Below, in pieces: positions 19,051 to 34,112 of a stretch of 34,112 nucleotides of DNA. Source of the stretch: a virus (Duplodnaviria; Caudoviricetes); the IMG/VR virus record IMGVR_UViG_3300020042_004176, positions 1 through 34,112 of that record; one strand, 5' to 3'. The notes under the pieces were generated by a model. It was not told the origin of the DNA. It worked only from the letters and a program-made list of their open reading frames with translations, and ran no database searches. Position 1 is the first letter of the stretch. Each line of letters starts with the position of its first letter. Both the position numbers and the translations under genes were made by a program.

Positions 19051-20433
19051 TAGGCCATCAGAAATTTCTTCACGATAAAGATCAATTATTTTTGTGTGGT
19101 TGCTAATGTTGTTCTGCAACATGCTGTACAGCCGTTGCTCAACTGCACTGCCCTTGATGTGCACCACTGTCATATTGTTCTTCTGACCGGGGCGGTCAAT
19201 CCGTGCGTTGGCTTGCAGGTAAGTCTCAACACTGGAGACGGGAGCGTACCAAATAACAGTGTTAGCTGCAGTCAGTGTTAACCCGTGGGAGGCCGCTTGC
19301 GGTTGGATGATGAGCACCTTTGGATCAGTCTGGTTCTGAAAACGATGCACTGCGTCACTGCGCTTGTTCAAACTCACGTCTCCGTTGATGACATCGCAGG
19401 TTATGCCGTTCTTTTCGAGGTGCGCCCTCAGCAGGTTTATGGTGTGCGTGAACGGCACAAAGACGAGTACCTTGTGTGACGACTCCTCGATCACTTCCTG
19501 CACCACGTTGAGGCGGTTTGACACATCAAAGTCCACTACCTCGCCAGTGTTGGTGTAGATGGAGCCGCAGGAAATTTGGAGCAGCTTGTTGATTGCCACT
19601 GCTGCGTTAACCGCAGAGATTTCTTCGCCTGCAGCTTCGATCATGAGCTGCGACTTGAGCTTGCTGTAAAACTTCAATTGCTGTGGCGTCAGTGGGGCAT
19701 CACGCTCTACGAACGTAACTGGTGGCAGGTCAAGGCACTGATCCTTCTCAAATCGAATTGCTGGCTGAAGTGCCTTGTGCACTACGTGAATAGCCGTTGG
19801 TTTTGGCACCCACTTGTACATCGTCATCTTGTTCATAACGGAGTCGCGAAACTGCCCGAAGAACGGGGGCACGCCTGTGGGGTTCACCAGTTTCGCCAAG
19901 CCATACGCATCCGCAGGGGACTGGGCAGCAGGTGTACCTGTCAGCATCCACAACCCTTTGACCTTGCGGTTGATGTCGCGCAATACTTTCCAACGATCTG
20001 TCTGCGCGTTTTTGTACGCAGACGCTTCATCTACAACGATCAGATCGAAGCCTCCGTTGATGACCTCGTCTTTGACAATACCAAGCCCGTCGAAGTTGAT
20101 GACGACATACTCGGCATTGCCGTTGACGATTTCTTTGCGCTTGAGTCGAGACCCATAGGCTATGGCTACGGTGCGATGTAGAGCAAACTTAAACAAGTCG
20201 TTCTGCCACGCTGGCTTCATGATCGACAGGGGGCACACAACCAAGACACGCTTGATCGCACCCACGTTCATGAGGTAGTCGGTCGCCCAAATCACTGATG
20301 CTGTTTTGCCAGTGCCCTGCTCGTTGAAGCAGAACGCTTTGCGGTTACTAACAAGGAACTCGGCAGTTAACTTCTGATGGTCGAACGGTTGAAACCCGTG
20401 AGGGCGGGGCCATTCATATTCTGATAGGTTCAT
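19024..20433 (-). CDS. SNF2-family (SF2) helicase
   Basis: Motifs EQGTGKT (I), VVDEAS (II), LTGTP (III), HGLTLTAA (V) and QANARIDRPGQ (VI). Confidence 0.9.
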   Translation of the reverse strand: MNLSEYEWPRPHGFQPFDHQKLTAEFLVSNRKAFCFNEQGTGKTASVIWATDYLMNVGAIKRVLVVCPLSIMKPAWQNDLFKFALHRTVAIAYGSRLKRKEIVNGNAEYVVINFDGLGIVKDEVINGGFDLIVVDEASAYKNAQTDRWKVLRDINRKVKGLWMLTGTPAAQSPADAYGLAKLVNPTGVPPFFGQFRDSVMNKMTMYKWVPKPTAIHVVHKALQPAIRFEKDQCLDLPPVTFVERDAPLTPQQLKFYSKLKSQLMIEAAGEEISAVNAAVAINKLLQISCGSIYTNTGEVVDFDVSNRLNVVQEVIEESSHKVLVFVPFTHTINLLRAHLEKNGITCDVINGDVSLNKRSDAVHRFQNQTDPKVLIIQPQAASHGLTLTAANTVIWYAPVSSVETYLQANARIDRPGQKNNMTVVHIKGSAVEQRLYSMLQNNISNHTKIIDLYREEISDGLLTVSTEPI

Positions 20434-20729
20434 TTTGCTTTACGTTCTTTCGTACTGGTTTGGGAGACGAGGTCGTGGCCAGAGTTGCGCTTGAACGAAC
20501 GGTTGGCTGACGCAGGTACAGCACGCAGGTTTGACTTGGTCGTCTCGCCACCGTTGGACAGGGCCTTCTTGTGGTCCACGTCCTTGCCGTCACCTTTGCT
20601 GACTTTGCCAGCGTCCTCCATGAGTCGCCGCGCCTTGTTGCGCTGTGCTCGCTTCTTCTTGACAGCTTCAGTGCCATCGTACTGCTCGTACTCTTTGGCA
20701 TAGGGTCGGGGTTTGTTTACGTAGGGCAT
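20430..20729 (-). CDS. HNH endonuclease-like protein
   Basis: DVDHKKALSNGG...SNLRAVPASANRS matches the HNH pattern; RBS AAGGAG. Confidence 0.8.
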   Translation of the reverse strand: MPYVNKPRPYAKEYEQYDGTEAVKKKRAQRNKARRLMEDAGKVSKGDGKDVDHKKALSNGGETTKSNLRAVPASANRSFKRNSGHDLVSQTSTKERKAK

Positions 20730-20908
20730 GTTGGCTCCTTTTCGCGGTTAATGATTCGTTTGAGGCATCGCTCCACAGCACTATGAATATCTTTTTTCAC
20801 CGATGGGCGACTACATTGTTCAAGATCACGCAACTCAATCACAATGTTTCTACCGCTTTTAGTTGGCATAACCGCGAAAGAGTTAAGTTTTTTCCCTACG
20901 TGTTCCAT
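20717..20908 (-). CDS. Hypothetical protein (63 aa)
   Basis: TGATG coupling with the upstream nuclease gene; fills the gap. Confidence 0.5.
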   Translation of the reverse strand: MEHVGKKLNSFAVMPTKSGRNIVIELRDLEQCSRPSVKKDIHSAVERCLKRIINREKEPTCPT

Positions 20909-21573
20909 CAGTCGCTCCTGTTGTGTTCACATTGTTTGACTGGGCAGAATCTGCACAGTGGCCCCGTTATGGGGTTCCACACTCCATTTTCCATTGCCGT
21001 TTCGATCCGAGCAAGGTCTGGGCGCAACTTGTCTACGTAGGCTTCTTTTAGCTCTACAACGTGTTCTGCGCGTACGAATTCTTTGCTAACTACAAACAGC
21101 AAAGCTGACTTGACCCGTGTAATCTTTGGGAACCGGGCGAATATGGCAGCGGCTACCAAGTCCAACTGCTGCTTGTCAGCGTAGCGAGCCGACTTGCTGG
21201 TTTTGTAGTCCACAGAATACGCAAGGCCCTTGGCCTCGTCGATCACGAGGAAGTCCGCAATGCCCCGCCACCACACATCGTCGGCATCGAACGCGCAGGG
21301 CTTGAGGTCTTTGGTCAGGCCAAGCTCCAGCTCTACATGCTTCTCGCCGGGTATGGCGGCAAGCGTATCCAGAAACGGCTGCATGTAGGAAAACTTCTCG
21401 GGTATCGGCGTGCCGTCCTTGACGAAATCCTCGGCGGCTTTGTGCACCGACTGGCCGTACATCGTAGCCACAGTGGGCGAGTCCTTGATGTCTTTGGCTA
21501 TCTTCAAGTGATAGTATTTCTTCGGACACTGTTGGAATGTCTTCAGGCTGCTGTACGACCATTTAATGCTCAT
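20908..21573 (-). CDS. Cas4-like PD-(D/E)XK exonuclease
   Basis: WSYSSL..QQCP at the N-terminus, G..VH, GIAD, DYKT and a C-terminal CRFCP..C (Fe-S-type Cys pattern). TAATG overlap with the polymerase gene. Confidence 0.85.
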   Translation of the reverse strand: MSIKWSYSSLKTFQQCPKKYYHLKIAKDIKDSPTVATMYGQSVHKAAEDFVKDGTPIPEKFSYMQPFLDTLAAIPGEKHVELELGLTKDLKPCAFDADDVWWRGIADFLVIDEAKGLAYSVDYKTSKSARYADKQQLDLVAAAIFARFPKITRVKSALLFVVSKEFVRAEHVVELKEAYVDKLRPDLARIETAMENGVWNPITGPLCRFCPVKQCEHNRSD

Positions 21574-23390
21574 TAACAATCTCCGTAACTTTTACCGAAA
21601 CCAGACTCGCAGTTTAGCGGGAGTTCGGGTCCCCACTTCGGCCTGACCTTCATGCAAACCTCGACGTACTCTTGTGCGCGTTCAACTTCCGCTTCGGGCG
21701 CAATGCAGGCAATCGCGTCATGCACCGTCATGACCACTTTGTATTTCTTGGCAACCATAAGCATCTGCTCACCGATGATGATTCGCGCAAGGGCTTGGCA
21801 CACGTTCTCCACCACCTTGCCGCCATAGATGCGGTTGGGGATAACAGCCTTGCCCTTCTTGGTGTCGTAGACAACTTCGGCTCTGCCTTGGTCGTTCTCC
21901 CACAAGCGGATGTTGGGGTACTTCAAGTGCAGGCCGTTGGGCAGTTGAACCCCTTTGCTGCCGTCAACCTTGAGCAGACCGCCTCGGCCAAATGAGGCTA
22001 CGCTGTTCTCCATTACCGCACGCAGAACATTGTTAGCCTCACGCCACAGCTCCGTTATCTTTGGATACGTAAGGCGATACGTGTCGATGATGCGTTTCGC
22101 TTCGTCCAGTTCGATGGACACACCGAAATTTTTAAGTTGGGCTTGGAACTTCGCAGCGCCCATGCCATAACCCGCGCCCAAGATTGTTGTCTTGCCGACA
22201 AAGCGCTCGTCTTTTGTGATCTTTTCGATTGCCTTGCCGTAGATAGCAGAAGCCATGATTTTGTAGACATCTTCACCCTTATCAAACGCATCGACAAGAT
22301 CGTCTTGCCCCGCAAGCCATGCCAACGTACGGGCTTCAATCTGCGATGAGTCTGAGTCAATCATCATGTAGCCGTTGGGGGCGAGAATGGCTCGCTTCAG
22401 CGGTGAGCTCCTTGGCAGATTTTGTAGATTGAGTTTATCGTCGCCGCCCCAACGCCCTGTGTGCGCAGCGTAATAGCGCAGTGGTACGGGCAGCTTGCCC
22501 CTTTCCGCAATGGAGATGAAACGCTCGGTGCGGGTCTCCTCCAGCGTAGACTTTACGCCCAGCCTAGCAGCCACAATTGCCTGCACTTGTGGGTCTTCGT
22601 GCTCAAGCAACGCTTTGAACTCTTCGTCGCTCTTGGCAAAAGCGAATGTCTCTCTGCCCGTGGCCGCGCTGATCTTGGTCGGTGGTGGTACGCCTAACAA
22701 TGTTAGCAAGTCGGCCAACTTTGGGTTGCTCATCAACGTGTCTTTGTCGTGGTCACCAAGCAACGCTTGCTTCTTATCGCGCACAGAGATGATGTGGTCG
22801 GCAAGGACTTTGGTGTCCAGCTCCAACGTGGGTTGTGTGTACATGCGCAGTGTCAGGTCAATCAGGCGCAGCTCCGCACCGGGGAAGCCCTGTGCCATGT
22901 GCTGAAACAATCTGTACGTCATGGCAACATCGTTCTTGCAGTACTCGCCGTACGTGGCTAGGTGCTCCGGTGTGAAGTCTGCCCGGTGGAATCCCTTGGC
23001 ATCGTTGACCTCTGTGCCCTTGACACCCACGTTGTAGTGCTCCGCAAGTGCCTTCAAGCTACCGCCCACCTCAGTGCCGTGCAGTGCACGCCCCATGCTC
23101 AGTGTGTCGAGCAAGCCCTTGGGGTGTATGTCAAACAGCCAGCCCATGATGGCCCCGTCGAACGCAGTGTTGTGCGCCAGCATCAACGAGTTCTCCCAGT
23201 CGTACTGCTTGAGGAACTTCTCGGTCTGCAACATGGAGCCGCTAAACCAGACTGGCTCACCGTCATCCTCCTGCACTGATACACCGATCACTTCAAACTC
23301 GGAGCCGCGCACGTACTCCTCAGTGGTCATGCGCGACAGGCTGTACTCGGTGGAGTAGTAGGTCTCGAAATCGAGGGTGATTATTTTCAT
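21573..23390 (-). CDS. polA: Phage family A DNA polymerase (3'-5' exonuclease + polymerase)
   Basis: ExoI LDFETY, ExoII AHNTAFD, motif A DSSQIEAR, motif B RFVGKTTILGAGYG, motif C VHD. Confidence 0.92.
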   Translation of the reverse strand: MKIITLDFETYYSTEYSLSRMTTEEYVRGSEFEVIGVSVQEDDGEPVWFSGSMLQTEKFLKQYDWENSLMLAHNTAFDGAIMGWLFDIHPKGLLDTLSMGRALHGTEVGGSLKALAEHYNVGVKGTEVNDAKGFHRADFTPEHLATYGEYCKNDVAMTYRLFQHMAQGFPGAELRLIDLTLRMYTQPTLELDTKVLADHIISVRDKKQALLGDHDKDTLMSNPKLADLLTLLGVPPPTKISAATGRETFAFAKSDEEFKALLEHEDPQVQAIVAARLGVKSTLEETRTERFISIAERGKLPVPLRYYAAHTGRWGGDDKLNLQNLPRSSPLKRAILAPNGYMMIDSDSSQIEARTLAWLAGQDDLVDAFDKGEDVYKIMASAIYGKAIEKITKDERFVGKTTILGAGYGMGAAKFQAQLKNFGVSIELDEAKRIIDTYRLTYPKITELWREANNVLRAVMENSVASFGRGGLLKVDGSKGVQLPNGLHLKYPNIRLWENDQGRAEVVYDTKKGKAVIPNRIYGGKVVENVCQALARIIIGEQMLMVAKKYKVVMTVHDAIACIAPEAEVERAQEYVEVCMKVRPKWGPELPLNCESGFGKSYGDC

Positions 23391-23623
23391 GTGGGGTCTT
23401 TCAGTAATTTCATCATGCCCGTAGCTGTTTCTTTGTCTATGCCTTTGGCTAGGGTAGTGCTCACGCGCTCACCATTACGGCTGTAGTCCCAGCGGTAGAC
23501 GGCGTACTTGCCTTTTTTGGAGCGCATGCTGTACTCGGTGCGGGGCTTTGTGTACTGCATACCAAACAAATTATTGAGTCCGGGCAGTAGCTCCTTGAGG
23601 AGTTGGGCGCGGCTTATTGGCAT
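23387..23623 (-). CDS. 78-aa protein whose N-terminus resembles a major capsid protein N-terminus
   Basis: RBS AAGGAG 8 nt upstream of ATG 23623; sequence begins MPISRAQLLKELLPGLNNLFGMQY; stop overlaps the polA start (ATGA). Confidence 0.7.
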   Translation of the reverse strand: MPISRAQLLKELLPGLNNLFGMQYTKPRTEYSMRSKKGKYAVYRWDYSRNGERVSTTLAKGIDKETATGMMKLLKDPT

Positions 23624-23916
23624 CCCATGCACTCCTTAATCACTGCTTCGAGGTGGTTGAAATTGGTCTCGTTGATAAGGCAGGTATAGCCACCCGCCTT
23701 GTTGATATCGCTGAGGTTCTTGAGTTGTAGGGCTGTTGCCATGCCCTTGCCTGCCTTGGCTTCAATAGCCACAAACTTGCCGTTCACGCAGCACAGGAAG
23801 TCAGGCACGCCGCTGTTGCCATAGCCAGTGCCGATGGGCATGGCGTAGTAGACGTTGTGTTCGGTCAGAATCTTTTTGATCTTGGCCTTGACCTTGGCCT
23901 CTGGTGTCGTTGCCAT
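23614..23916 (-). CDS. VRR-NUC domain nuclease (Holliday junction resolvase-like)
   Basis: TPEAKVK...GVPD...IEAKAGKG..TALQ matches the PD-(D/E)XK VRR-NUC pattern. Confidence 0.85.
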   Translation of the reverse strand: MATTPEAKVKAKIKKILTEHNVYYAMPIGTGYGNSGVPDFLCCVNGKFVAIEAKAGKGMATALQLKNLSDINKAGGYTCLINETNFNHLEAVIKECMGCQ

Positions 23917-24269
23917 CAGTCAACCCATTCCATGAACGTGTGGCCCTTGTGCTGAAAGATAGCCAGTCGGAATGTCTTCTCAAGTGTTGCGTCGTCTTCG
24001 CCGTTTTGTTTGTAGCTGCACTGCTCACAGGTAAACTCGATCAGCATGCCCTGTCGGGCCGGGCTTGGGTTGCAGGTGTCTTGTGAGGGGAACTCGGTTG
24101 CTTGTACGTTGCACCCGTCTTGCGCTATCACCGTGGTGGTGTGTGAGCTTTCACCGCACGCAAATATCGTGACGTTCTCTTGGTGGATGTTGCCGCCGCT
24201 TCCGCATGGGCAATTAAGCTGTCCGTAGCTGTCGCTGTCCACCACAGCGGGGTTCAAACCAAATGCCAT
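23916..24269 (-). CDS. Hypothetical Cys-containing protein (117 aa)
   Basis: CPC near the N-terminus and CEQC later; RBS GGAG; first gene after the 24300-24327 promoter. Confidence 0.7.
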   Translation of the reverse strand: MAFGLNPAVVDSDSYGQLNCPCGSGGNIHQENVTIFACGESSHTTTVIAQDGCNVQATEFPSQDTCNPSPARQGMLIEFTCEQCSYKQNGEDDATLEKTFRLAIFQHKGHTFMEWVD

Positions 24270-24299
24270 CTAATGCTCCAATTTATTTAGGGAACGGTC

Positions 24300-24327
24300 A
24301 TAATATCACGGCTCTTTACTTTGTCAA
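24300..24327 (-). promoter_or_regulatory. Sigma70-type promoter TTGACA-N16-TATTAT with extended -10 TG
   Basis: -35 at 24327-24322 and -10 at 24305-24300 on the - strand, directly downstream of a terminator and upstream of the replication genes. Confidence 0.75.
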
Positions 24328-24338
24328 CACCCAGACGT

Positions 24339-24361
24339 AAAAAAGCCGCCCGTAGGCGGCT
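24339..24361 (-). terminator. Rho-independent terminator ending the early operon
   Basis: The - strand reads AGCCGCC-TACG-GGCGGCT-TTTTT (C-UACG-G tetraloop, U6 tract). Confidence 0.88.
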
Positions 24362-24388
24362 CGGTGAATACCCTAACAATGTTAGGCG

Positions 24389-24958
24389 TCAGAAGATAGA
24401 ACTATCAATCTCACGCTTCAAGTACCAAAGCGCTTTTTCGAGGTCTTGTTTGCGGTTGCCTTTGTGGTCGGCACGGGTGATGTACTTGATCACGTTGCCA
24501 AGGTTGTAACCAAGCTCCTTGGCTTCAATGAAGTCGATGGTCTCGATGCCGCCGTACTTGTAGTGAGCAGGTTGGTTGACCGGGTCGGCCTTGGGTTCGT
24601 GCATGGTTACAGGCAATGGGTCTGGCCCCTGCATCAGAATCTTACCCGTCACGGGGTGTACTCGGTTTCGGACCTTACCTGCTTGATACGCCAACTCCAC
24701 CATACGTTGTTTGTACGTATCGGTAACCTTATCCTCAACCACGGGCGTGTCGGATGTGCTGATGTGCAGTGTCTTCCATTTCTTCGGCGTGGGTCTAGTC
24801 TTCCTAGGCTCGGTCTTCCCCACTCTGCCCTTTGCTTTGAGCGCCCAAAGAACTGTGTGCACATAGTTATTCTTCGTGCCTAATGCTGTGCTTATATCCT
24901 TAGCCGTAGCGTTTGGGTTTGCTGCGGCGTAGTCGCGGATTTGTTGGGACTTGTTCAT
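24389..24958 (-). CDS. DUF3310 (SaV-like) domain protein with N-terminal HTH-like segment
   Basis: C-terminal DPVNQPAHY..GGIETIDFI...GNVIKYITRADHKG..QDLEKALWYL; N-terminal ATAKDISTALGTKNNYVHTVLW. Confidence 0.8.
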   Translation of the reverse strand: MNKSQQIRDYAAANPNATAKDISTALGTKNNYVHTVLWALKAKGRVGKTEPRKTRPTPKKWKTLHISTSDTPVVEDKVTDTYKQRMVELAYQAGKVRNRVHPVTGKILMQGPDPLPVTMHEPKADPVNQPAHYKYGGIETIDFIEAKELGYNLGNVIKYITRADHKGNRKQDLEKALWYLKREIDSSIF

Positions 24959-25155
24959 GGTTTAACTCCTGTTTGTTGGTTAACGTAGTTCACTAAAATC
25001 TCCCTGATCTTGGCTTGTTTTGAATATTCGTGGTGCGTGTCAAAGTACTCCAGCACATGCACAGGTAGCCGTAGGCTTGTGCACAGCAGGCGTGGTTTCT
25101 TGCCAAGGCCCCGCCCCTTGCGTTCTTTTTTTGGTTCTTCAATCTCCTTAGTCAT
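24955..25155 (-). CDS. Small DNA-binding protein, BrnA-antitoxin/ribbon-helix-helix-like
   Basis: RKGRG.GKKP..CTSLRLPVHVLEYF...KQAKIREIL: a basic arm followed by a beta strand and two helices. Confidence 0.6.
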   Translation of the reverse strand: MTKEIEEPKKERKGRGLGKKPRLLCTSLRLPVHVLEYFDTHHEYSKQAKIREILVNYVNQQTGVKP

Positions 25156-25382
25156 TTTTTCTCCGCATACACTTCTGGAGCTGCATGGATGAACGTACCC
25201 CCTTCTATTTTTCCTCGCGGTTGGTTAAAAAACACACGGCTGCCCAGCGTGTCTTTGTTGTGGAAAAACCGTGGGTTGGTTTCCTGCACAGATTTAATCG
25301 TGTGGTCCAAGTTGCTGGGCGTGGCGGCACGTAGAGTTGATTGCAGGTTTACGGGTAACAGGGAATGGAATAGATGGCTCAT
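25152..25382 (-). CDS. Hypothetical protein (76 aa)
   Basis: RBS AAGGAG; ATGA overlap with the next gene. Confidence 0.7.
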   Translation of the reverse strand: MSHLFHSLLPVNLQSTLRAATPSNLDHTIKSVQETNPRFFHNKDTLGSRVFFNQPRGKIEGGTFIHAAPEVYAEKK

Positions 25383-25418
25383 GGTTTCTCCTTGGGTTAA
25401 AAAAGTGCTTCGGGTAAA

Positions 25419-25664
25419 TTAGTCGTTGGTTTCTTTCTTTCGACGGTAGACAGGTGCATCAAGTTCAACACCTTCGGGTCGGCTCGATCGAACGGCCACC
25501 ATGCGTTTGTCACGAGGGCGTGGAGTTGTTCCCGCTGCGACTTGTTCAAGCGAGATGAAAGTGTGGGTGTTGGCGCACTCTTTTCTTCGCCAGATTTCGT
25601 TGGTGTTTTCATCGGTTCGTGTCTCTAGTGTGCGTGTCCATGCGCCGCAGATTGGGCATTTCAT
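25419..25664 (-). CDS. NrdR-like N-terminal zinc-ribbon protein
   Basis: MKCPICG..TRTLETR...RRKEC..HTFISLE mirrors the NrdR zinc ribbon; no ATP-cone follows. Confidence 0.7.
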   Translation of the reverse strand: MKCPICGAWTRTLETRTDENTNEIWRRKECANTHTFISLEQVAAGTTPRPRDKRMVAVRSSRPEGVELDAPVYRRKKETND

Positions 25665-25873
25665 ATTTCATGTTTGTTGAGTTGTGGTTTGGTTTTCGGC
25701 GCGGCTCGGGTGTGGATGCTAAAGACCTTGTAGGCCACCAAATTTTCCTCTTTGCTCAGGTGCGCGTAGGTTTGAGGAACTTTTGGTTTGAACGCTACGT
25801 CTTTGCCAAAAATACTTGGTCGTTGGTTGTGAGCCCAGTGGAAGGGCGAGTCGGGGTGGCATTTACATTTCAT
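25661..25873 (-). CDS. Hypothetical protein (70 aa)
   Basis: Overlaps both neighbours in a coupled chain of small genes. Confidence 0.6.
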   Translation of the reverse strand: MKCKCHPDSPFHWAHNQRPSIFGKDVAFKPKVPQTYAHLSKEENLVAYKVFSIHTRAAPKTKPQLNKHEI

Positions 25874-26135
25874 TTTTTTCTTTCAGTTTGGCTTCGATGG
25901 CTTCGGCAAATTCATCAAGCTCTTGCTCCTCGTAAGTCCCATCTTTTCTTACAAAGCGCACACCGATGAGGTTATCGTTCTCATCGTAGAATCCCGCCAT
26001 CATGGGCGCGTCTCCCCACGGCGCACGGGAATGCACAATGGTTGATTTCTTTTTGGGGGGCGTCCAGTAGCAGGCCGTCTTTGTGCCTTCAGGTACAGGC
26101 CCGCGCTGGTAGTCGTAGAGTTTGATGTCAGGCAT
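25863..26135 (-). CDS. Hypothetical protein (90 aa)
   Basis: ATG 26135 with GGAG upstream; C-terminal FAEAIEAKLKEKN resembles that of the upstream gene. Confidence 0.65.
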   Translation of the reverse strand: MPDIKLYDYQRGPVPEGTKTACYWTPPKKKSTIVHSRAPWGDAPMMAGFYDENDNLIGVRFVRKDGTYEEQELDEFAEAIEAKLKEKNEM

Positions 26136-27083: not shown

Positions 27084-27253
27084 TTAACCCGCCGTACGTT
27101 CACCCATACAGGTTCTTCTTTCTTAGCCACGGGTGGTGGTGTCATCTTCTCGCTCGGGGGTGTCCACCCGTACTTGCGCCACAGTGCTTGTACGTCAGCA
27201 CCACTAGACCATTTGTACTCGGGGTGGCCTACGGGAATCCATGGGTTAGTCAT
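27080..27253 (-). CDS. Hypothetical protein (57 aa)
   Basis: ATG 27253 with AAGGAG RBS; contains DVQALWRKYGWTPPSE. Confidence 0.7.
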   Translation of the reverse strand: MTNPWIPVGHPEYKWSSGADVQALWRKYGWTPPSEKMTPPPVAKKEEPVWVNVRRVK

Positions 27254-28122
27254 TTGCTTGCTCCTTCTTCGTCTAACACAACAACAAACACTTCGCTGCT
27301 TACTCTGCAACCAGCATTCGTCACCATCTGCTTGTACTCGACCAGCTTCAACAGACCCAGTCGGCCCCGTATTTGTTCGGGGAGGTCATTATCATCAAAC
27401 AGTTGTACGTTGTCACCTGTTTTAACTATGTACTTACCCTGATCTAACACAACAAGTGCAGCGTTACCCGAACCGTATTTGTTTCGCACTTCCTCGATAG
27501 TTTCTGCATCCAATGTCTCCTTGTCGTACCGCTCTAACATTGTTAGGTTGGCTGACGCATGCACCTTCGAGAACTGCTCAAACGCTTTGCGAGCTTGGGC
27601 CATAACAAACACAAAGGACGCAGTCTCTAGCTTGTACTTGACTGACTGTACGTTGTGGGCTGACCTGCTCACAGCGGAGTCGATTGCCGCTCTTGCATCA
27701 CTTTGCGCGCTCACAAGCCTCTCGTTGGAGTTGCGTTTGATGAAGTGCTTTTTGACAGCACCGATCGCACGCTTGACATCGCTCGTACGCATGCGGCTGT
27801 TGCGGTTATTGCTCATCCGGTGGTTGTATATACCAACGCCGTGGTTGCCGCGAAAATAGTCGCCCTCTATGACGCCAAGGTCCTCGCCCCCGCAACTGAT
27901 TTTGATCTTTGATGGTGTGGCTGCGGTGCTATCGCTATAGCTAAGGCCCTCGAACTGAAACCGCCATGTCGGGTTAGCTTTGTAGATTGCGTCGAACACC
28001 TCGCCCATCATGGTCGATCGAAACTTGATACTGCCGTCCCAGTTGGCGTATCGGTTGTTGATTGCATCCAATGTGCTGGACTCGAACGATGCGTTCGGCA
28101 GGTTGCGTGTGTTGAATCTCAT
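27250..28122 (-). CDS. Hypothetical protein (290 aa)
   Basis: RBS AAGGAGA before ATG 28122; long ORF in the early operon. Confidence 0.8.
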   Translation of the reverse strand: MRFNTRNLPNASFESSTLDAINNRYANWDGSIKFRSTMMGEVFDAIYKANPTWRFQFEGLSYSDSTAATPSKIKISCGGEDLGVIEGDYFRGNHGVGIYNHRMSNNRNSRMRTSDVKRAIGAVKKHFIKRNSNERLVSAQSDARAAIDSAVSRSAHNVQSVKYKLETASFVFVMAQARKAFEQFSKVHASANLTMLERYDKETLDAETIEEVRNKYGSGNAALVVLDQGKYIVKTGDNVQLFDDNDLPEQIRGRLGLLKLVEYKQMVTNAGCRVSSEVFVVVLDEEGASK

Positions 28123-28132
28123 TGTGTTCTCC

Positions 28133-28987
28133 TTACCATTCAAACTTCTTGAGGATGCTGTCCACCTTGGACTTCAGCTCGCTTCGTGCATCGCTGCTTT
28201 CCTTGATGACTTCTATGTTTGCCCCTAACATTGTTAGCTCCAACTGTCTACGAGCTTCTTCGAGCAAGGGGTTGTTGGTCACGTTCAGCTTTGTCAGCAG
28301 CCCGCATAACTCCAAAGGGTTACTGATAAGTGTGTCGTGGTAACGCTTCTTGGCGTCATCGCCTTCAACGTCTGTCAGCTTCTCCGACATGGTTGTCAGC
28401 ATGGTGTGTAGGCGGTTCCATGGCTCGCGCACTGCATCGGCCAGTCGCTCTTTGAACTTGTCCTCGAACTCGTCGCGCATCTCTGCTAAGTCATCCGCAG
28501 GTATGTCCAAGCGGAAGTCACCCGACTCGGGCATGGGGTTCACTGCTCGGCGAAACCCGAACTTGGCTTTGACTGTCTCCAAGTCTGGGTAGTCCTCGGC
28601 CTTGTACATCGTGCCAAGATTGTTGTGCGCCTCGCCCACCAGCCGTGGGTACTCGGCATAGAAGTTGTGACACATCGTGTCGAACGCACGTTCGTAGTCG
28701 TTCATCGTCTGCTTGTACTCCATGAACAGCTTGGTCGGCAGCATGCGCTCGCCCTTGTCAGCCCACGGTAGGGTGTGCTGGTTGTGGTAGAGCCGAACGC
28801 GAGCGGCGAACTTCTCGATGTCTTTGCGCAAGCTCGTACCTGCAAACAAATTCTTCTTGGTCTGCGATGCCCCGGCCACTGCCGATGCGTCTGCATTTAC
28901 CTTGTCCGTAACCTCTCGGTCGATCTTCGACGCAGGCCACACACTGATGTTCAACTCAACTAACACTGCTGATGCACTGATACTCAT
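28133..28987 (-). CDS. Helical hypothetical protein, possibly DUF3150-like (284 aa)
   Basis: RBS AGGAG before ATG 28987 (MSISASAVLVELNISVW); downstream of the AAA/VWA pair. The family call is from memory. Confidence 0.65.
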   Translation of the reverse strand: MSISASAVLVELNISVWPASKIDREVTDKVNADASAVAGASQTKKNLFAGTSLRKDIEKFAARVRLYHNQHTLPWADKGERMLPTKLFMEYKQTMNDYERAFDTMCHNFYAEYPRLVGEAHNNLGTMYKAEDYPDLETVKAKFGFRRAVNPMPESGDFRLDIPADDLAEMRDEFEDKFKERLADAVREPWNRLHTMLTTMSEKLTDVEGDDAKKRYHDTLISNPLELCGLLTKLNVTNNPLLEEARRQLELTMLGANIEVIKESSDARSELKSKVDSILKKFEW

Positions 28988-29037
28988 TTGGTTTCTCCTA
29001 ACATTGTTACATCGGCCACAAAGAGTGACCGTTCCCA

Positions 29038-29268
29038 TTACTTCTTGTCTGGCTTGCCAGCCATACGTGCCATCTCCGCAATCGAGTCGGGCACGATCTT
29101 CATCGAGAAGTTTTGCTCGCTCGGGTATGCAAAGTAAGCGGTGGTGCTTGACTCGCTCATGTACTTCTCCTCCCATGTTTGTGCCTTGGACAGAATTTCT
29201 GCCACGGTTACTGCATCCTTAACAGACAAAAGGAATTCCGAATTCCAACCTAATTTCAAAACCATCAT
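29038..29268 (-). CDS. Hypothetical protein (76 aa)
   Basis: RBS GAGGAG before ATG 29268, immediately after the VWA gene stop. Confidence 0.7.
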   Translation of the reverse strand: MMVLKLGWNSEFLLSVKDAVTVAEILSKAQTWEEKYMSESSTTAYFAYPSEQNFSMKIVPDSIAEMARMAGKPDKK

Positions 29269-29278
29269 GTTGCTCTCC

Positions 29279-30478
29279 TCAGTTTTTGATGTGAATTGTT
29301 TTGCCGCTTGGAGCGACACTTGTGTTGCCACCTGTGATGGCCCACATAACCGGAGCAGTCCAGTCACTACCCCAGTCACTGCCGACATAGCCATCTGTGA
29401 GCATGATGATGCACTCAGGAACAATCTTCTTCTCCTTCAGGTACTCGGACATGCAGCTTGGGCTTGTGCCCCCGCCACCCTTGGGTTTGGTTGAGCTAAC
29501 AATGTTAGCCACGTCAGCCTCGGCGTACTCTTCGTGCGCCGCTACTTCGCTGTCCCAGTAGATCAAGTCAACCTTCTCTGGGTTTACTTCTTCCGCGATA
29601 CCCTTTACCTCGGACAGAAACTCTGCGAGCTCAGGCCCACCGATCGAACCCGATGTGTCGATACCCACAACGATGTGGCCCACCTTCTCACCTACCATAG
29701 AGGGCATGTAAATACCCGTAGACAGGAACCGCCGGTTGACTCTGCGCCAGCTTGATGTGTCCTTGGCTCGGCACACTGCTTTCACATACTCACGCAGCTC
29801 CTCGCGCCAGTTGACCTTGGGCTCCATCAAGTCTTGCAACTCGCGGTCGAGTCCACCCGCACCCTTGCCGTTGATCTTCTGGTGTGCCATCAACCCCTGC
29901 CGTATCGCTTGGTCGATGTCACGGGCCAGCTCCTTCTTCTGCTCGTCGGTTAGTTCCTTGGCTCCGTCCCAGTCGTGCTCGTCCATGCCACCACCACCGC
30001 CGCCGCCTTCGTCATCTTCTTGCTCTTGCTTGAGGATGTCGAACACCTGCTTGGTGTTCATGCCACGGAACCGCTCGTCGATCAGGCCCATCTTCTTGCC
30101 CATGTGCGGCCCGTCCCTGTACATAGGCATGGCGATGACGCTCTCGGTCGGATCGAGGTCCTTGAGCATCAGGTTAATAACGTAGTCACAAGCCTGATTG
30201 GTTAACTGCGGATTTTCCGCATGTAACTTCGTCCACGTAGTCATGTGGCGGTACATCTTGTGCCCTGCCTCGTGTGCGATGACAAAGGCAAGCTCGGGGT
30301 CGCGCAGCTTCTTGACGAACTCACGGCCATAAATCTCGTCACGACCGTTGGTACACGCAGTCGGAATGTTGTCGGCTACCCGTGTTTTGCCCACCATCAA
30401 GATACCTTGCAGCAATGCGAACTTGGGGTGTCGCATCAATGTGATCTTGGCCTTCTGAACCTTGCGTTCTTCTAACAT
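29279..30478 (-). CDS. DUF2201-like protein: HExxH metallopeptidase-like domain + VWA domain
   Basis: TACTNG, IAHEAGH, NQACDYVIN; MIDAS DTSGS, GGGT and LTDGY. Confidence 0.88.
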   Translation of the reverse strand: MLEERKVQKAKITLMRHPKFALLQGILMVGKTRVADNIPTACTNGRDEIYGREFVKKLRDPELAFVIAHEAGHKMYRHMTTWTKLHAENPQLTNQACDYVINLMLKDLDPTESVIAMPMYRDGPHMGKKMGLIDERFRGMNTKQVFDILKQEQEDDEGGGGGGGMDEHDWDGAKELTDEQKKELARDIDQAIRQGLMAHQKINGKGAGGLDRELQDLMEPKVNWREELREYVKAVCRAKDTSSWRRVNRRFLSTGIYMPSMVGEKVGHIVVGIDTSGSIGGPELAEFLSEVKGIAEEVNPEKVDLIYWDSEVAAHEEYAEADVANIVSSTKPKGGGGTSPSCMSEYLKEKKIVPECIIMLTDGYVGSDWGSDWTAPVMWAITGGNTSVAPSGKTIHIKN

Positions 30479-30490
30479 TGTTAGCTCCTT

Positions 30491-31555
30491 TCACAGTAAA
30501 TCTTGATTCTTGGCAACCCAGTCCGAGAACGCCTTGCAACTGAACGCAATGGCTTGCTTGGATGGTGTACGTGCGATGTTGATTGCAAAGCATGCTTGCC
30601 ACTCTGGTTCAAACCTCTCCAGATAGGACATGAACGGAGCGATCGTTGTCTTGTCCACACGGGCGATAGCACCGAACACCACGATGGCACATGCGCCGGG
30701 GCTTGTGGGTACAGTCGTAGTCTTTGGATGCTGGATGGTGGACTCCCACGTAGGCAGTTGATCCGAGAACTCGATGTACGCTTGCATGTCACGGGCTGCA
30801 CTCTCACCGATCGCACCTGTCAGCGCGGCAATCACCGCATCGCTGTCGTTCTCTTTGCGTGTCCTAACAATGTTAGATGCAGTCTCAAGTGAACGTGGCG
30901 ATACGAACGCTGTCTGTGTCTTCCTCGGGTTGTAGATGTAGGGGTTGTCACCCTGCCCACCGTCCGTGTAGCTTGCCAGCGCATGAGGGAAACGATTCAC
31001 CCACGCAATCACCTCAGCCTCGATGCCTTTGTTGATGGCCCAGTCGATCCACTGATCTGCATCAGGCTTGCTGATGGTTACGGGTACTAAGCGATTGCGA
31101 GAGTGGGCCTTCAGGCTGTCACCCACACCGTCCGTGCTCAGGTTGCCCGTCAGGAACACGATGGTGTCCTTGGTCAGCGGGATGTCGCCGAGCCGTGGGT
31201 TGGCCTTCTCAAGCATGGGGTGCAGCATGTTCTTCACTGGGTCAGCACCCTTGGTGAACTCGTCGAGCATGATGACCAACGGCTTGTTCTCGTGGATGCG
31301 GAACCGTGCGTTGGGGTAGTAGCGTGTCGTCTTGGTGTCGTGGTCGATCACAGGCATGGCGATATCACCCAAGTCCATGTTCGGTACGTCTATGTATGCG
31401 TACTCGTAACCCAGACCGCCAGCGATGGATTCGAGCAACGAAGACTTGCCAATCCCCGGCTCGCCTTGCAGCAAGAACCGGGTCGTTGGGTTGGTGCGGA
31501 TCAAGTTGGCCGCTTGCTTGAGCGTGATGCTCTTGCCGAAAGATACTTCTGACAT
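30491..31555 (-). CDS. MoxR-like AAA+ ATPase
   Basis: Walker A GEPGIGKS, Walker B IMLDEF, sensor TGN, RNR arginine finger, SPRS sensor II; adjacent to the VWA gene. Confidence 0.88.
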   Translation of the reverse strand: MSEVSFGKSITLKQAANLIRTNPTTRFLLQGEPGIGKSSLLESIAGGLGYEYAYIDVPNMDLGDIAMPVIDHDTKTTRYYPNARFRIHENKPLVIMLDEFTKGADPVKNMLHPMLEKANPRLGDIPLTKDTIVFLTGNLSTDGVGDSLKAHSRNRLVPVTISKPDADQWIDWAINKGIEAEVIAWVNRFPHALASYTDGGQGDNPYIYNPRKTQTAFVSPRSLETASNIVRTRKENDSDAVIAALTGAIGESAARDMQAYIEFSDQLPTWESTIQHPKTTTVPTSPGACAIVVFGAIARVDKTTIAPFMSYLERFEPEWQACFAINIARTPSKQAIAFSCKAFSDWVAKNQDLL

Positions 31556-31643
31556 TTCTAATCCTCTGATGTATGCCTAACATTGTTAGGCGGGTTTCTG
31601 ATTTACTCTCTGAATTTGACATGGTTTTCCCACATCAGCTTAT

Positions 31644-31672
31644 ATTGTAACACAGATTGATACCTAAGTCAA
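31644..31672 (-). promoter_or_regulatory. Sigma70-type promoter TTGACT-N17-TACAAT
   Basis: -35 at 31672-31667 and -10 at 31649-31644 on the - strand, in the intergenic gap upstream of the AAA gene. Confidence 0.8.
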
Positions 31673-31677
31673 GTGAT

Positions 31678-31899
31678 TTAGCCATGGGGTCTGACTAAAG
31701 ATGAAGATACGTATCTGTCTGTTAGCAGGGCCATCGCTTGCATGGCCCCGTGGTCGTCGCTCTCAGCAGCAATCCACCACATCTGGTTAACACCGCGCCG
31801 CTTGCTGATGCCCATGCGGTCGTACCATTGACGCTCAACGACGATGAAGTTGCCGAACTTGCCGCGCAGCAACATCCATTTCTTCTTGCGCCGTGGCAT
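31678..31899 (-). CDS. Hypothetical protein (73 aa)
   Basis: TGATG coupling at 31899; begins MPRRKKKWMLLRG. Confidence 0.6.
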   Translation of the reverse strand: MPRRKKKWMLLRGKFGNFIVVERQWYDRMGISKRRGVNQMWWIAAESDDHGAMQAMALLTDRYVSSSLVRPHG

Positions 31900-32015
31900 C
31901 ACCGCCCCTTTGTCAGCGCCAACACCCACACTTCAACCGCATGGGCGTCCTCGTGCCTGCCTACCAATCGCAGAGCATTGGCTAACTGCATCCCCGCGTG
32001 GTACACGTTGTTCAT
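31899..32015 (-). CDS. 38-aa hypothetical peptide (absent from the ORF track)
   Basis: MNNVYHAGMQLANALRLVGRHEDAHAVEVWVLALTKGR; overlaps the stop/start codons of both neighbours. Confidence 0.55.
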   Translation of the reverse strand: MNNVYHAGMQLANALRLVGRHEDAHAVEVWVLALTKGR

Positions 32016-32260
32016 TTCATCACCATCACTTTCCTCGTGACTACCTCGGCTACCACAGTGGGTAACACTGTTAGGGGCTCGGACTCGCCGAACTCATCGC
32101 GCAGGCGTGTCCACACCGTTGCGTTCCACTTCGCCGTGCGTTGGTTGGGGACGTGCATCCAGCGGCCACTGGCCCTGTCCACAACGTCGAACCCATCACC
32201 CACGGGCACGATGATGCAACCCTTGTAGCCCGTAGGCGCTCCAATGTTTACTTGTTTCAT
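32012..32260 (-). CDS. Hypothetical protein (82 aa)
   Basis: RBS AAGGAG upstream. Confidence 0.65.
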   Translation of the reverse strand: MKQVNIGAPTGYKGCIIVPVGDGFDVVDRASGRWMHVPNQRTAKWNATVWTRLRDEFGESEPLTVLPTVVAEVVTRKVMVMK

Positions 32261-32272
32261 TTCATTTCTCCT

Positions 32273-32443
32273 TTAACTAAATATTTCTTCGACCGATTCG
32301 ACATCCCATTGGGAGTCGTTGATGTTTACGTTGTCGGCTTCGACCCGTGCCCATGCTTTGGTTTCAGCATCGTCTTCGTTCTCCGCCTCCACTGTGATGG
32401 TGATGTAGCTGGTACGGCGTAACTCCACTTCAAATGTCTTCAT
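32273..32443 (-). CDS. 56-aa acidic protein, DpnD/PcfM-like pattern (absent from the ORF track)
   Basis: MKTFEVELRRTSYITITVEAENEDDAETKAWARVEADNVNINDSQWDVESVEEIFS; RBS AAGGAG; ATGA overlap. Confidence 0.7.
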   Translation of the reverse strand: MKTFEVELRRTSYITITVEAENEDDAETKAWARVEADNVNINDSQWDVESVEEIFS

Positions 32444-33594
32444 GCTTTCTCTCCTTCGTTTCTAAAGTCATCGAACAACATCCCTGCATAGTGTGTCGTA
32501 GGCACACGGCCCACGGGCATCTGCTTGAGCTCCATAATCTCCTCGGCATGCACAAGTGTCAGGAACGCTGTCACTGCATCGGCTGCTGCGGAGTAGCTCA
32601 ACTCAATCGGTCTGTACGGCCCCTTCACATCAAAGGTGAACGACCGCACACCTGACGCCGCGCACATGAGGCCCATTGACGCCTTGAGGAAGTTGGCATG
32701 CTTGGTCTCCTCGGGCTGGTCACTGCGCATGAGGTCTAACACCTTGTCTCGTATGCCGTACCAGTCAGCTTTGCGTTTCTGCGCTCGCTCGTTTGCTTCT
32801 CTCTTGCCCTCCTCCGTGTCATAGCTGACGTAGTACCCCAACCATGTCGGCTTGTTCCTCACATCGGCGAACAGCTTCACGTCTATGTACGTAACCTCAA
32901 CATCGGTGAACATCGATACGGGTCCGTTACCAGAGAACCGATTCTCCATCCGAGTACTCGTCCCAAGCGTGTCGGCAAGCATGTCTTTGGGTAGTGCCAG
33001 TATCCGCGCCGCCTCGAACGGGTCATCCTCGTTGGACTTCTCGCGCTCTTGTGTGAGCAGTGAGACCATGCCTTTGTGGTAGCCGATCATCTCTTTGTAC
33101 TTGGCCCTAACACTGTTAGCCTTGGTACGGTTGGGTGCCCATACGCGCACACCCTCAGCGTTCCTGACCTCCCATCTACCGGGGCGGTTCTCCGCAGGAA
33201 TACGCACAAGCTCGATGCTCGTGCCTTCCTTCAGTGGGTGCTTGATAAAGTTGTCTCCACTGTTCAAGCGCAACACCATCATGCCCCTCGTTCTGTTTAC
33301 GGTCGTATCGGGAAGTAACCCTTCGATGAACGAACATGTGAACGATGACGGCCACTTGCCCGGCGTGACCACCACACCGCCGTCTTGCTTGAACGTCACC
33401 ACAGCAGTGTCATAGAGCACACACTCAAGGTTGCCCTCGTTGTTCTCACGTATGAACATGTGCGCGTCCCTACGCGCACCCAGTGGCCTGCGGCCCATAC
33501 GCGCACCGTTTCGCAGTGGCTTGATACTGTCGTGGTACTTCTTGGCACCTTCGTAGCCGTACAGGTACGGCAGTCTTCCTGTTGATGCAAACAT
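32440..33594 (-). CDS. Hypothetical early protein (384 aa)
   Basis: RBS AAGGAGA; long ORF with no motif I recognise. Confidence 0.8.
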   Translation of the reverse strand: MFASTGRLPYLYGYEGAKKYHDSIKPLRNGARMGRRPLGARRDAHMFIRENNEGNLECVLYDTAVVTFKQDGGVVVTPGKWPSSFTCSFIEGLLPDTTVNRTRGMMVLRLNSGDNFIKHPLKEGTSIELVRIPAENRPGRWEVRNAEGVRVWAPNRTKANSVRAKYKEMIGYHKGMVSLLTQEREKSNEDDPFEAARILALPKDMLADTLGTSTRMENRFSGNGPVSMFTDVEVTYIDVKLFADVRNKPTWLGYYVSYDTEEGKREANERAQKRKADWYGIRDKVLDLMRSDQPEETKHANFLKASMGLMCAASGVRSFTFDVKGPYRPIELSYSAAADAVTAFLTLVHAEEIMELKQMPVGRVPTTHYAGMLFDDFRNEGEKA

Positions 33595-33595
33595 G

Positions 33596-33763
33596 TCAAT
33601 TCTCCTTGTTGAGTCGGTAAACTTTTATCTGCTTGAGTGTCGGATGGCTGGTCTGGTATCGCTTCTTGGCCGCTTCCATCGTTGCACATTCGAGCGTCTC
33701 GGCAACCCACATGCCGAACCTTGCGCTCCAGCCTGTGACGTAATATCTATTGAGTCCACTCAT
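33596..33763 (-). CDS. 55-aa hypothetical protein (absent from the ORF track)
   Basis: MSGLNRYYVTGWSARFGMWVAETLECATMEAAKKRYQTSHPTLKQIKVYRLNKEN; ATGA overlap; fills the gap exactly. Confidence 0.6.
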   Translation of the reverse strand: MSGLNRYYVTGWSARFGMWVAETLECATMEAAKKRYQTSHPTLKQIKVYRLNKEN

Positions 33764-33972
33764 ACGTAGTCCTTGGTTGCTGCGTTGTCCTTGTCGTTGG
33801 CCAGTCGCTCTAACATTGTTATGTAGTCCTTCTCGCCGCTCACCACCAGCTCAAGGTTTCGCGGTTGCTTTGTCTCCCACTGGTAGTCGGCCCAGTGGTC
33901 TGCCTTGATTACATATACGTGGTCGGTCTCTCGTGAGCGCACCAGAATCCACTCGTCAGTTTTAGCTAACAT
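33760..33972 (-). CDS. Hypothetical protein (70 aa)
   Basis: RBS AGGAGG; ATG 33972 lies inside a palindrome copy (MLAKTDEWILV...). Confidence 0.7.
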   Translation of the reverse strand: MLAKTDEWILVRSRETDHVYVIKADHWADYQWETKQPRNLELVVSGEKDYITMLERLANDKDNAATKDYV

Positions 33973-34111
33973 TGTTAGGCCCCTCCTGCCAGTCCTTGCA
34001 CTCACAGAGTTCTTCGTTCCCTGTGCGGTATGTGGCGCAGCTCCGCATGTGCATGAGTTTGTGCCCGTGGTAGATGAACGTATCAATCATCTGAGCGTGG
34101 TCGTGCAGTAG
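33962..34111 (-). CDS. Hypothetical His/Cys-rich protein, probably 5'-truncated by the window edge
   Basis: Open frame LLHDHAQMIDTFIYHGHKLMHMRSCATYRTGNEELCECKDWQEGPNNVS*, overlapping the next start. Confidence 0.45.
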   Translation of the reverse strand, partial: LLHDHAQMIDTFIYHGHKLMHMRSCATYRTGNEELCECKDWQEGPNNVS

Positions 34112-34112
34112 C

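What the first reader, a model, noticed from the sequence alone, without database searches (positions are those of the whole stretch)
19253..33978. Array of a 13-bp palindrome (CTAACA-N-TGTTAG) written through the early and replication genes: candidate undescribed protein-DNA site system
Seen: 10 perfect copies (22694, 24373, 27534, 28225, 29496, 30472, 30864, 31577, 33107, 33966) and 4 one-mismatch copies (19253, 28998, 32062, 33810). A motif with 12 fixed bases is expected about 0.002 times in 34 kb at uniform composition. Only the centre and the outermost base vary, the pattern expected for a dimeric DNA-binding protein. Copies occur every 0.15-1 kb from 27.5 kb rightwards, are sparse in the replication block, and were not found in the late genes. 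Inference: a genome-scale binding system. Options include a stoperator-like silencing array (mycobacteriophage L5 uses many 13-bp, but asymmetric, sites), sites that organise or shield the first-entering DNA, or decoys that titrate a host regulator.
Basis: partly seen in the sequence, partly recalled or inferred. Interest (0 to 1): 0.88.

Follow-up and report, generated by a model that had tools for sequence, protein, structure and literature searches.

The report
Phage operator array with swappable specificity
This uncultured phage has one short DNA palindrome written 14 times through its early genes, and in its relatives the palindrome's spacing changes in step with one small protein of no known family, which likely binds these sites as a pair and likely dampens early transcription, so that related phages would fall into separate immunity groups.

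Summary
The array is real: 10 perfect and 4 outer-mismatch copies; 9 lie wholly inside genes against 0.13 expected from synonymous shuffles. The window is a 34-kb piece of a ~62-kb phage lineage. Relatives carry the same half-site with a 1-, 2- or 3-bp spacer, and 182 of 183 sites in 11 near-complete genomes lie on the early/replication arm. Spacer class tracks the first early gene (gp1, ~170 aa, no Pfam/PHROG or fold match, predicted homodimer), which lies just beyond the window's end. Intragenic sites are gained and lost with gp1 type, some by synonymous codons. In a sister lineage one Thr/Val change in an unrelated first-gene protein tracks one base of a different palindrome (7 and 3 loci). 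Best reading: a phage-encoded dimeric repressor with dispersed operators. Binding and repression are inferred, not shown. No integrase was found. It works like stoperators but fails membership (symmetric sites). It most resembles the unexplained Cluster O mycobacteriophage palindromes. This scan noted the same array before in three other genomes.

The parts
33966..33978 (.). perfect site; contains the ATG (33972) of a 70-aa gene and overlaps the end of the upstream ORF
33810..33822 (.). outer-mismatch site inside the 70-aa gene (ITMLER)
33107..33119 (.). perfect site inside the 384-aa gene (ANSVRA)
   Evidence: orthologous sites
32062..32074 (.). outer-mismatch site inside an 82-aa gene
31644..31672 (-). 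predicted strong sigma-70 promoter (P3) of the ATPase-vWA-DUF3150 part of the early operon
   Evidence: conserved in 32 genomes
31577..31589 (.). perfect site centred about +54 from P3, in the leader; 31 of 32 P3 promoters have such a downstream site, the exception being the array-less G005
30864..30876 (.). perfect site inside the MoxR-like AAA ATPase gene (30491-31555; SNIVR); kept in 16 of 16 one-bp-spacer genomes, erased, mostly by synonymous codons, in 8 of 13 two-bp genomes
30472..30484 (.). perfect site containing the start codon of the DUF2201/vWA gene (29279-30478)
29496..29508 (.). perfect site inside the vWA gene (ANIVSS); 14 of 16 one-bp genomes, 2 of 13 two-bp genomes
28998..29010 (.). 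outer-mismatch site abutting the ribosome-binding site of the DUF3150-like gene (28133-28987)
28225..28237 (.). perfect site inside the DUF3150-like gene (LTMLG); 14 of 16 one-bp genomes, 2 of 13 two-bp genomes
27534..27546 (.). perfect site inside the 290-aa gene (27250-28122)
24373..24385 (.). perfect site at the end of the early operon, just before the terminator and centred about -86 from the replication promoter
24335..24362 (-). predicted intrinsic terminator closing the early operon
24300..24327 (-). predicted sigma-70 promoter (P4) of the replication genes
22694..22706 (.). perfect site inside the DNA polymerase A gene (LTLLG)
22024..22036 (.). two-mismatch site inside the DNA polymerase gene (possible weak or decaying site)
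19253..19265 (.). outer-mismatch site inside the SNF2-type helicase gene (ANTVI); 7 of 16 one-bp genomes, 0 of 12 two-bp genomes
34112..34112 (-). contig end; the inferred binder gp1, its promoter P1 and promoter P2 would lie up to about 2 kb beyond it (in relative G001, gp1 = L085:5281-5796)
   Evidence: inferred from relatives, not in the window

Best explanation
The palindromes are likely operators for gp1, a ~170-residue all-helical protein encoded by the first early gene (seen in close relatives, inferred for this truncated genome), which is predicted to form a symmetric dimer and likely turns down the early operon once it has accumulated. gp1 is made from its own short transcription unit (own promoter, own terminator). 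It would bind 11-21 sites spread over the following ~13 kb: one 33-104 bp downstream of each strong early promoter and the rest at gene junctions and inside genes. There it would act as a series of orientation-independent roadblocks, or by cooperative looping, rather than by covering the -35/-10 boxes. Sites 64-103 bp upstream of its own promoter and of the replication promoter would tune those two promoters; the sign is unknown and activation is plausible. Specificity is set by half-site spacing: the length of the segment before gp1's conserved Trp-x-Arg helix goes with a 1-bp or a 2/3-bp spacer. gp1 alleles have been exchanged between lineages, after which the array is rewritten. I infer the driving force is escape from repression by co-infecting or resident relatives, i.e. 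immunity groups. Shown: the array, its placement, its covariation with gp1. Predicted: the dimer. Inferred: binding, repression, immunity.
For: Confinement: 182 of 183 class sites on the early/replication arm in 11 near-complete genomes, 166 in its first 13 kb. Covariation: site class needs 4 changes on the gp1 tree (minimum 3; 0 of 500 label shuffles as low) against 5-9 on 20 other genes, while gp1 clade itself changes 7-8 times on ATPase, terminase and polymerase trees. Segment length: 37 of 37 gp1 proteins with an E68-W88 span of 21-22 residues go with 1-bp sites; 35 of 36 longer ones go with 2- or 3-bp sites (73 of 76 distinct proteins; 3 left out for fewer than 3 sites). This includes switches inside each clade. 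Rewriting: ATPase site 16/16 vs 5/13, DUF3150 two-bp site 1/16 vs 12/13, helicase sites 7/16 vs 0/12 and 0/16 vs 7/12. Loss: five loci with a different first gene (c167) have no site at the first-gene promoter or downstream of the second promoter and keep mainly intragenic relics. Sister lineage: an unrelated first-gene family; Thr in TAQKTY goes with TTCGTAC-N-GTACGAA only (7 loci), Val with TTCATAC only (3 loci, three places on the tree), a third variant with TTCCCAC. Duplex symmetry: outer-base variants mirror each other (5' A 36, 3' T 45), with no G-U preference; 70 of 76 gp1 genes have a site upstream of their promoter region, with no A/T spacer bias. Dimer model: score 0.76, best of 3 controls 0.00, runs agree in at least 85% of contacts, pLDDT at least 78; mark reached by 20 of 30 known homodimers and 1 of 23 monomers. 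The two helices around the loop are the only net-basic segments; W88 is in 141 and R90 in 112 of 149 homologues. Terminator after gp1 in 26 of 27 copies; none found inside the early operon in 4 of 4 genomes scanned.
Against: No binding or expression data. gp1 is not in the window; the nearest complete relative is 83-91% identical in DNA. gp1 matches no known DNA-binding fold, so DNA binding rests on covariation. Independent-pair tests go the right way (3.2-4.6 of 4-5 pairs) but are too few for significance (median p 0.06-0.25). Exceptions: L294 has the long segment with 1-bp sites; G008, G030, G039 and G042 carry two site classes, and I labelled those used in the trees by hand (G030 by its promoter-linked sites, against its majority). 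Two of five c167 loci keep the P3 site. Sites seldom overlap core promoter boxes, and a site at +50 is a weak position for a simple repressor. No integrase in 30 records, 13 of them at least 90% complete; no partition or resolvase family among proteins scanned; no integrated relative among 11 genome hits. A lysogenic state, the usual reason for immunity, is therefore unsupported.
Confidence: 0.6

Rival explanations
1. Same binder and sites, but a purely lytic timer: gp1 shuts the early host-takeover operon and switches on the replication promoter in every infection, with no role in immunity; specificity changes follow from gene exchange.
For: No integrase or partition genes. Upstream sites at the replication promoter cluster near -64, -71, -84/-86 and -93/-94, roughly one helical turn apart.
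Against: An internal timer gives little reason for the extreme divergence of gp1 (347 clusters at 50% identity), for repeated swaps, or for changing amino acids to write new sites. Start sites were estimated from consensus only.
Confidence: 0.2
2. Structural role: gp1 coats, loops or anchors the early arm (compaction, shielding from nucleases, membrane or partition anchoring); effects on transcription are secondary.
For: Even spacing of about 0.7 kb; 198 of 555 sites inside coding sequence; two predicted dimer interfaces joined by a flexible linker. Cluster O authors judged initiation control unlikely for their array (PMC4351075).
Against: 31 of 32 P3 promoters and 70 of 76 gp1 promoters have a site at a fixed side. 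Shielding would not need private specificity. Entry order of the DNA is unknown.
Confidence: 0.1
3. RNA-level control: the palindromes are mRNA hairpins (AUG in the loop) bound by gp1 as a translational repressor or cut by a nuclease.
For: 95 of 555 sites are centred on an ATG and 71 more lie just upstream of a start (crude gene calls). A few copies form terminator stems.
Against: Typical hairpins are weak (about -2.4 kcal/mol). No G-U wobble preference; variants are strand-symmetric. The most conserved site lies upstream of the first promoter. The site itself contains ATG and ends in an RBS-like run, which explains the overlap.
Confidence: 0.05
4. The sites are decoys or targets for a host regulator, or crossover points for site-specific shuffling of early genes.
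For: Some indel ends between close relatives fall next to a site. Recombination between repeats is reported for Cluster O (PMC4351075).
Against: Site class follows a phage gene. 1 match in 151 genomes of one guessed host family against 5 for the reversed control (host unknown). The 700-bp indel examined is not site-to-site. No recombinase found.
Confidence: 0.05

Closest known systems
17-bp palindrome array of Cluster O mycobacteriophages (Corndog; PMC4351075, section 8 and passages read)
   Same: Perfect dyad with a short A/T-rich spacer, dozens of copies, inside and between genes, densest in one arm, no integrase or parAB.
   Different: Different sequence and lineage. There the binder and function are unknown and most sites are not tied to promoters. 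Here a specific protein covaries with the site, spacer length varies between phages, and sites sit at fixed sides of each promoter.
Stoperator system of Cluster A mycobacteriophages (L5 gp71, TipsytheTRex; PMC9283540 and PMC6550527, passages read)
   Same: One ~180-aa phage protein, more than twenty 13-bp sites (11-21 here), proposed elongation block, and motif variation that tracks repressor variation.
   Different: Stoperators are asymmetric, oriented, mostly in intergenic spaces and bound by a monomer with HTH plus Stoperator domains, in phages with integrase or parABS. Here sites are symmetric, often intragenic, bound by a predicted dimer with no detected similarity, and no integrase or parABS was found.
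Streptomyces phage phiC31 repressor and its dispersed sites (seen only as a passage in PMC4557955; that the sites are inverted repeats is recalled)
   Same: 18-30 dispersed repressor sites. The Atlas listed a 'Streptomyces phage repressor c' cluster among the nearest named ones (0.81 and 0.79).
   Different: Temperate integrating phage with three repressor isoforms. The Atlas score is under 0.9, a lead only; no Pfam support among the families listed.
KorB/OB system of plasmid RK2 (PMC11790492, passages read)
   Same: Operator sites that repress promoters from a distance.
   Different: KorB is a ParB-type CTPase clamp with co-repressor KorA; gp1 has no ParB match.

Membership tests
Cluster A stoperator system | Many short sites dispersed through the phage genome | tested here: met
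   14 in the window; 11-21 per near-complete relative
Cluster A stoperator system | Sites asymmetric and oriented with transcription | tested here: not met
   Perfect dyads with mirror-symmetric variants
Cluster A stoperator system | Repressor with HTH plus Stoperator domains | tested here: inconclusive
   No Pfam, PHROG, PDB-sequence or fold match listed; absence from the lists does not exclude it
Cluster A stoperator system | Repressor binds as a monomer | tested here: inconclusive
   Model predicts a homodimer (0.76 vs 0.00); prediction only
Cluster A stoperator system | Temperate phage with integrase or parABS | tested here: not met
   Tyrosine integrase 0 of 30 records; no recombinase or ParA/B family in proteins scanned
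Cluster A stoperator system | Bound protein stops elongation and confers immunity | not testable with these tools
   Needs reporter and infection assays
Cluster O-type palindrome array (descriptive kind) | Near-invariant dyad with short A/T-rich spacer, inside and between genes, biased to one arm, no integrase | tested here: met
   PMC4351075 section 8
Cluster O-type palindrome array (descriptive kind) | Same site sequence as Cluster O | tested here: not met
   Half-site CTAACA here, TGTTCGG there
Cluster O-type palindrome array (descriptive kind) | Homologous binding protein | not tested
   The Cluster O binder is unidentified; gp1 had no match in 50,697 phage records
KorB/ParB global regulator | ParB-type CTPase domain | tested here: not met
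   No ParB family for gp1 or among families listed for 149 homologues; model has only helices
Host regulon site | Enriched in host genomes | tested here: inconclusive
   1 match in 151 genomes of one guessed family vs 5 for control; true host unknown

The most novel reading that the evidence does not exclude
An abundant phage lineage without integrase runs an immunity system built on an uncharacterised dimeric DNA-binding family whose specificity is reprogrammed by half-site spacing, set by one loop. gp1 would keep its own promoter and the replication promoter on while silencing the early operon, holding the phage as a non-integrated, self-replicating resident. The first-gene slot is a swappable cassette (at least five families not shown to be related), and each swap is followed by rewriting 10-25 sites into coding sequence.
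Probability: 0.25. Interest if true: 0.9.

Novelty: new variant of a known kind. Interest (0 to 1): 0.74.

Why it matters
Dispersed palindrome arrays in apparently lytic phages (Cluster O) have had no assigned binder or function. Here natural covariation names the binder and yields sharp predictions: spacer class from loop length, and one base from one residue in the sister family. It points to a DNA-binding protein family with no known match and a natural set of orthogonal protein-site pairs. It shows that selection for operators can rewrite codons and amino acids across 13 kb. A cultured phage of similar gene order, Pag-Yong1, carries its own 25-copy array, so whether such arrays give immunity, timing or a carrier state can be tested directly.

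Tried and rejected
Fold searches of gp1 gave no clear match: full length, Foldseek PDB and BFVD no E<=0.001, VIA best Z 6.5; N-domain, best Z 7.2, rmsd 4.3 over 84 residues. PDB sequence search found nothing under E 0.3. Atlas leads (DUF3102, Streptomyces repressor c, T4-type translation repressor) scored under 0.9 and were inconsistent between the two searches. A resemblance of the W...W-x-R pattern to Myb/MADF domains is recalled and was not supported by these searches. Profile comparisons of gp1 with the Pag-Yong1 first gene and the sister family were negative; with c167 weak (E 0.003, probability 11%). The HTH, RHH-like and DUF3310 proteins were rejected as binders. Genome collection: nothing with the ATPase; 11 terminase hits, all on contigs of 60 kb or less in bins of unrelated taxa, so no host and no prophage. 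gp1 profile 0 of 301 bacterial genomes, without a positive control. No array in the partial stretches read of DSL-LC04 (33 kb), 023Pt_psg01 (21 kb), HTVC027P (22.5 kb) and KPP25 (34 kb). One RNA run covers the region evenly as contigs and may hold DNA: uninformative; its site-to-site joint rests on 22 letters. The metagenome scan gave 5 short contigs, not examined for gp1. Nine paper searches listed no description of this array or protein family; the library lacks most subscription journals and I read no supplements, which may bear on Pag-Yong1 and HTVC023P-type phages.
Full report
Observation. The four one-mismatch copies differ only at an outer base, so all 14 share TAACA-N-TGTTA; a two-mismatch copy lies at 22024. 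It is the only recurrent palindrome in the window. Nine copies lie wholly within genes, often using rare codons (CTA, TTA); synonymous shuffles give 0.13 on average and at most 2 in 2000. Two more contain a start codon, one abuts a ribosome-binding site, one lies about 54 bp after a strong promoter and one precedes the terminator and the replication promoter.

Setting. The window is a whole 34-kb virus record: virion genes on the plus strand to 14.3 kb, then on the minus strand an early operon (MoxR-like ATPase, DUF2201/vWA, DUF3150-like) and replication genes. Relatives are common in IMG/VR (95, 309 and 598 confirmed stretches) and complete ones are 61-67 kb. The nearest catalogued terminases are 54-58% identical (DSL-LC04, 023Pt_psg01, pelagiphage HTVC027P). 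The host is unknown.

The array in relatives. De novo palindrome counts on 156 loci showed the same half-site with spacers of 1, 2 or 3 bp, variants with TGACA, some mixed loci and some with almost none (part of that output was cut). I fetched 33 of the 50 larger records. In 11 near-complete genomes with both landmarks, 182 of 183 class sites are on the early/replication arm, 166 in its first 13 kb. Of 555 sites in 32 genomes, 198 are in coding sequence, 166 at starts and 191 intergenic or unassigned by my crude gene caller.

The binder. The first early gene, gp1 (~170 aa), lies beyond the window's end; in G001, whose ATPase is 98% identical and DNA 83-91% identical, it has its own promoter with a site upstream and one at its ribosome-binding site. 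It has no PHROG or Pfam match and 347 homologous clusters at 50% identity. gp1 clade changes 7-8 times on backbone trees, so alleles were exchanged. Independent pairs agree (3.2-4.6 of 4-5) but are too few for significance. Among 73 of 76 distinct gp1 proteins with three or more sites, a span of 21-22 residues from E68 to W88 goes with 1-bp sites in 37 of 37, and a longer span with 2- or 3-bp sites in 35 of 36. That covers insertions in clade I (L273/L286, L285, G004) and a shortening in clade II (G011); L294 is the exception, and mixed genomes were labelled by hand. The model has a four-helix N-domain (pLDDT 86), a disordered linker and a C-terminal hairpin. A homodimer is predicted (0.76, best control 0.00; mark reached by 20 of 30 dimers and 1 of 23 monomers), with most of the W88/R90 helix outside the interface. 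That helix and the one before it are the only net-basic segments.

The array follows the protein. The ATPase site is kept in 16 of 16 one-bp genomes and in 5 of 13 two-bp genomes; the others mostly encode the same SNIVR with other codons. Two-bp genomes have new sites elsewhere, with amino-acid changes (DUF3150 12 of 13 vs 1 of 16; helicase 7 of 12 vs 0 of 16). Five loci with another first gene (c167) lack the site at the first-gene promoter and downstream of the second, keep 1-8 mostly intragenic relics, and two keep the P3 site. A sister lineage has an unrelated first-gene family and TTCGTAC-N-GTACGAA in the same slots: Thr in TAQKTY goes with that site only (7 loci), Val with TTCATAC only (3 loci at three places on a small tree), and a third variant with TTCCCAC. 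Cultured Pag-Yong1 has 25 copies of GTTCA-N3-TGAAC, with one on each side of its first early gene and several in late genes.

DNA, not RNA. Outer-base variants mirror each other (5' A 36, 3' T 45); wobble-forming T..G pairs are no commoner than their mirror images (5 vs 5; 41 vs 53). 70 of 76 gp1 genes have a site upstream of the promoter region with no spacer orientation bias. Typical hairpins are weak.

Mechanism. Of 128 predicted promoters, 104 have a site within 130 bp, in two groups: +33 to +114 after the strong early promoters, and mostly -64 to -103 before the gp1 and replication promoters; few overlap the core boxes. 31 of 32 ATPase promoters have the downstream site, the exception being array-less G005. 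gp1 is closed by a terminator in 26 of 27 copies, and no terminator was found inside the early operon in the four genomes scanned. This layout allows a state with gp1 on and the early operon down. I infer cumulative roadblocks or looping, and immunity between classes as the force behind the swaps. Against this, no integrase (0 of 30), partition gene or integrated relative was found, so a lytic timer remains a serious rival. Nothing here shows binding or its sign.

Comparison. It works like the Cluster A stoperator system (PMC9283540 and PMC6550527, passages) but is not a member: sites are symmetric and there is no integrase or parABS. In anatomy it is closest to the Cluster O array, whose binder and function were unknown (PMC4351075, section 8 and passages). 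phiC31 (passage in PMC4557955) and KorB (PMC11790492, passages) are looser analogues. Passages of PMC9599517 on HTVC023P-type phages contain no 'palindrom'. Nine searches listed no account of this array; no supplements were read. Three earlier notes of this scan report the array in other genomes, one naming the first gene; I read them after forming my reading and do not count them as support.

Verdict. Real, widespread in its lineage, and a new variant of the dispersed-operator kind with a candidate binder of no known family. Odds: about 0.85 that gp1 binds the sites, 0.6 for repression with class-specific immunity. Interest 0.74.

Noticed in passing
L349, L354-L368: Sister lineage with an unrelated first-gene family (alignment A5, at least 200 homologues) and arrays TTCGTAC/TTCATAC/TTCCCAC-N1; one residue tracks one base.
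   Followed up: partly
L337/L338 (OL906435, Pag-Yong1): Cultured phage with 25 GTTCA-N3-TGAAC sites. MinM2 and Pra-JY27 have the same length (65,014) and the same match scores but are listed with different cyanobacterial hosts, so the true host deserves checking.
   Followed up: partly
window 19038-19050: A different palindrome, TTGACAGTGTCAA, overlaps the -35 box of the promoter at 19050 and is seen in both one-bp and two-bp genomes, absent in four of ten shown; a possible site for another regulator such as the HTH at 17405-17659.
   Followed up: no
L035:880-910 and 1945-1962; L043, L049, L152, L291: c167-type genomes have a TAG[GT]GTT[TA][AC] motif abutting the -35 box of the first-gene promoter; G005 also has TAGGGTTAACCCTA before the ATPase promoter.
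   Followed up: partly
L049:1038-1200 and 1598-1635; L152:6532-6625 and 7037-7092: Tandem 19-bp-period repeats (TGCCTATTTTTTAAGCA) between the first gene and the second promoter, iteron-like.
   Followed up: no
G004, G012, G015, G042 downstream of gp1: The palindrome forms the stem of a second terminator-like hairpin right after the first.
   Followed up: no
G021 (L029:2744-3256 and 3943-4431); G005 (L035:1010-1516 and 2071-2577): The first gene is duplicated with its promoter in both families.
   Followed up: no
L343, L369, L327, L373, L290/L292: Further palindrome families in related loci: ACCCT-N7-AGGGT, TGAC-N5-GTCA, CGAA-N5-TTCG, GTTCA-N3-TGAAC, and G[GT]AACA-N-TGTTCC beside a divergent gp1.
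   Followed up: no
L146/L031 and L050: Two more first-gene proteins with no gp1 match and no palindrome array.
   Followed up: no
window 7698-14309: 2203-aa virion protein with LPD39 and DarB-like anti-restriction matches.
   Followed up: no
L085:6060-6700: Long non-coding stretch between gp1 and the second promoter, with a duplicated ~30-bp repeat and A/T runs; possible origin or packaging region.
   Followed up: no
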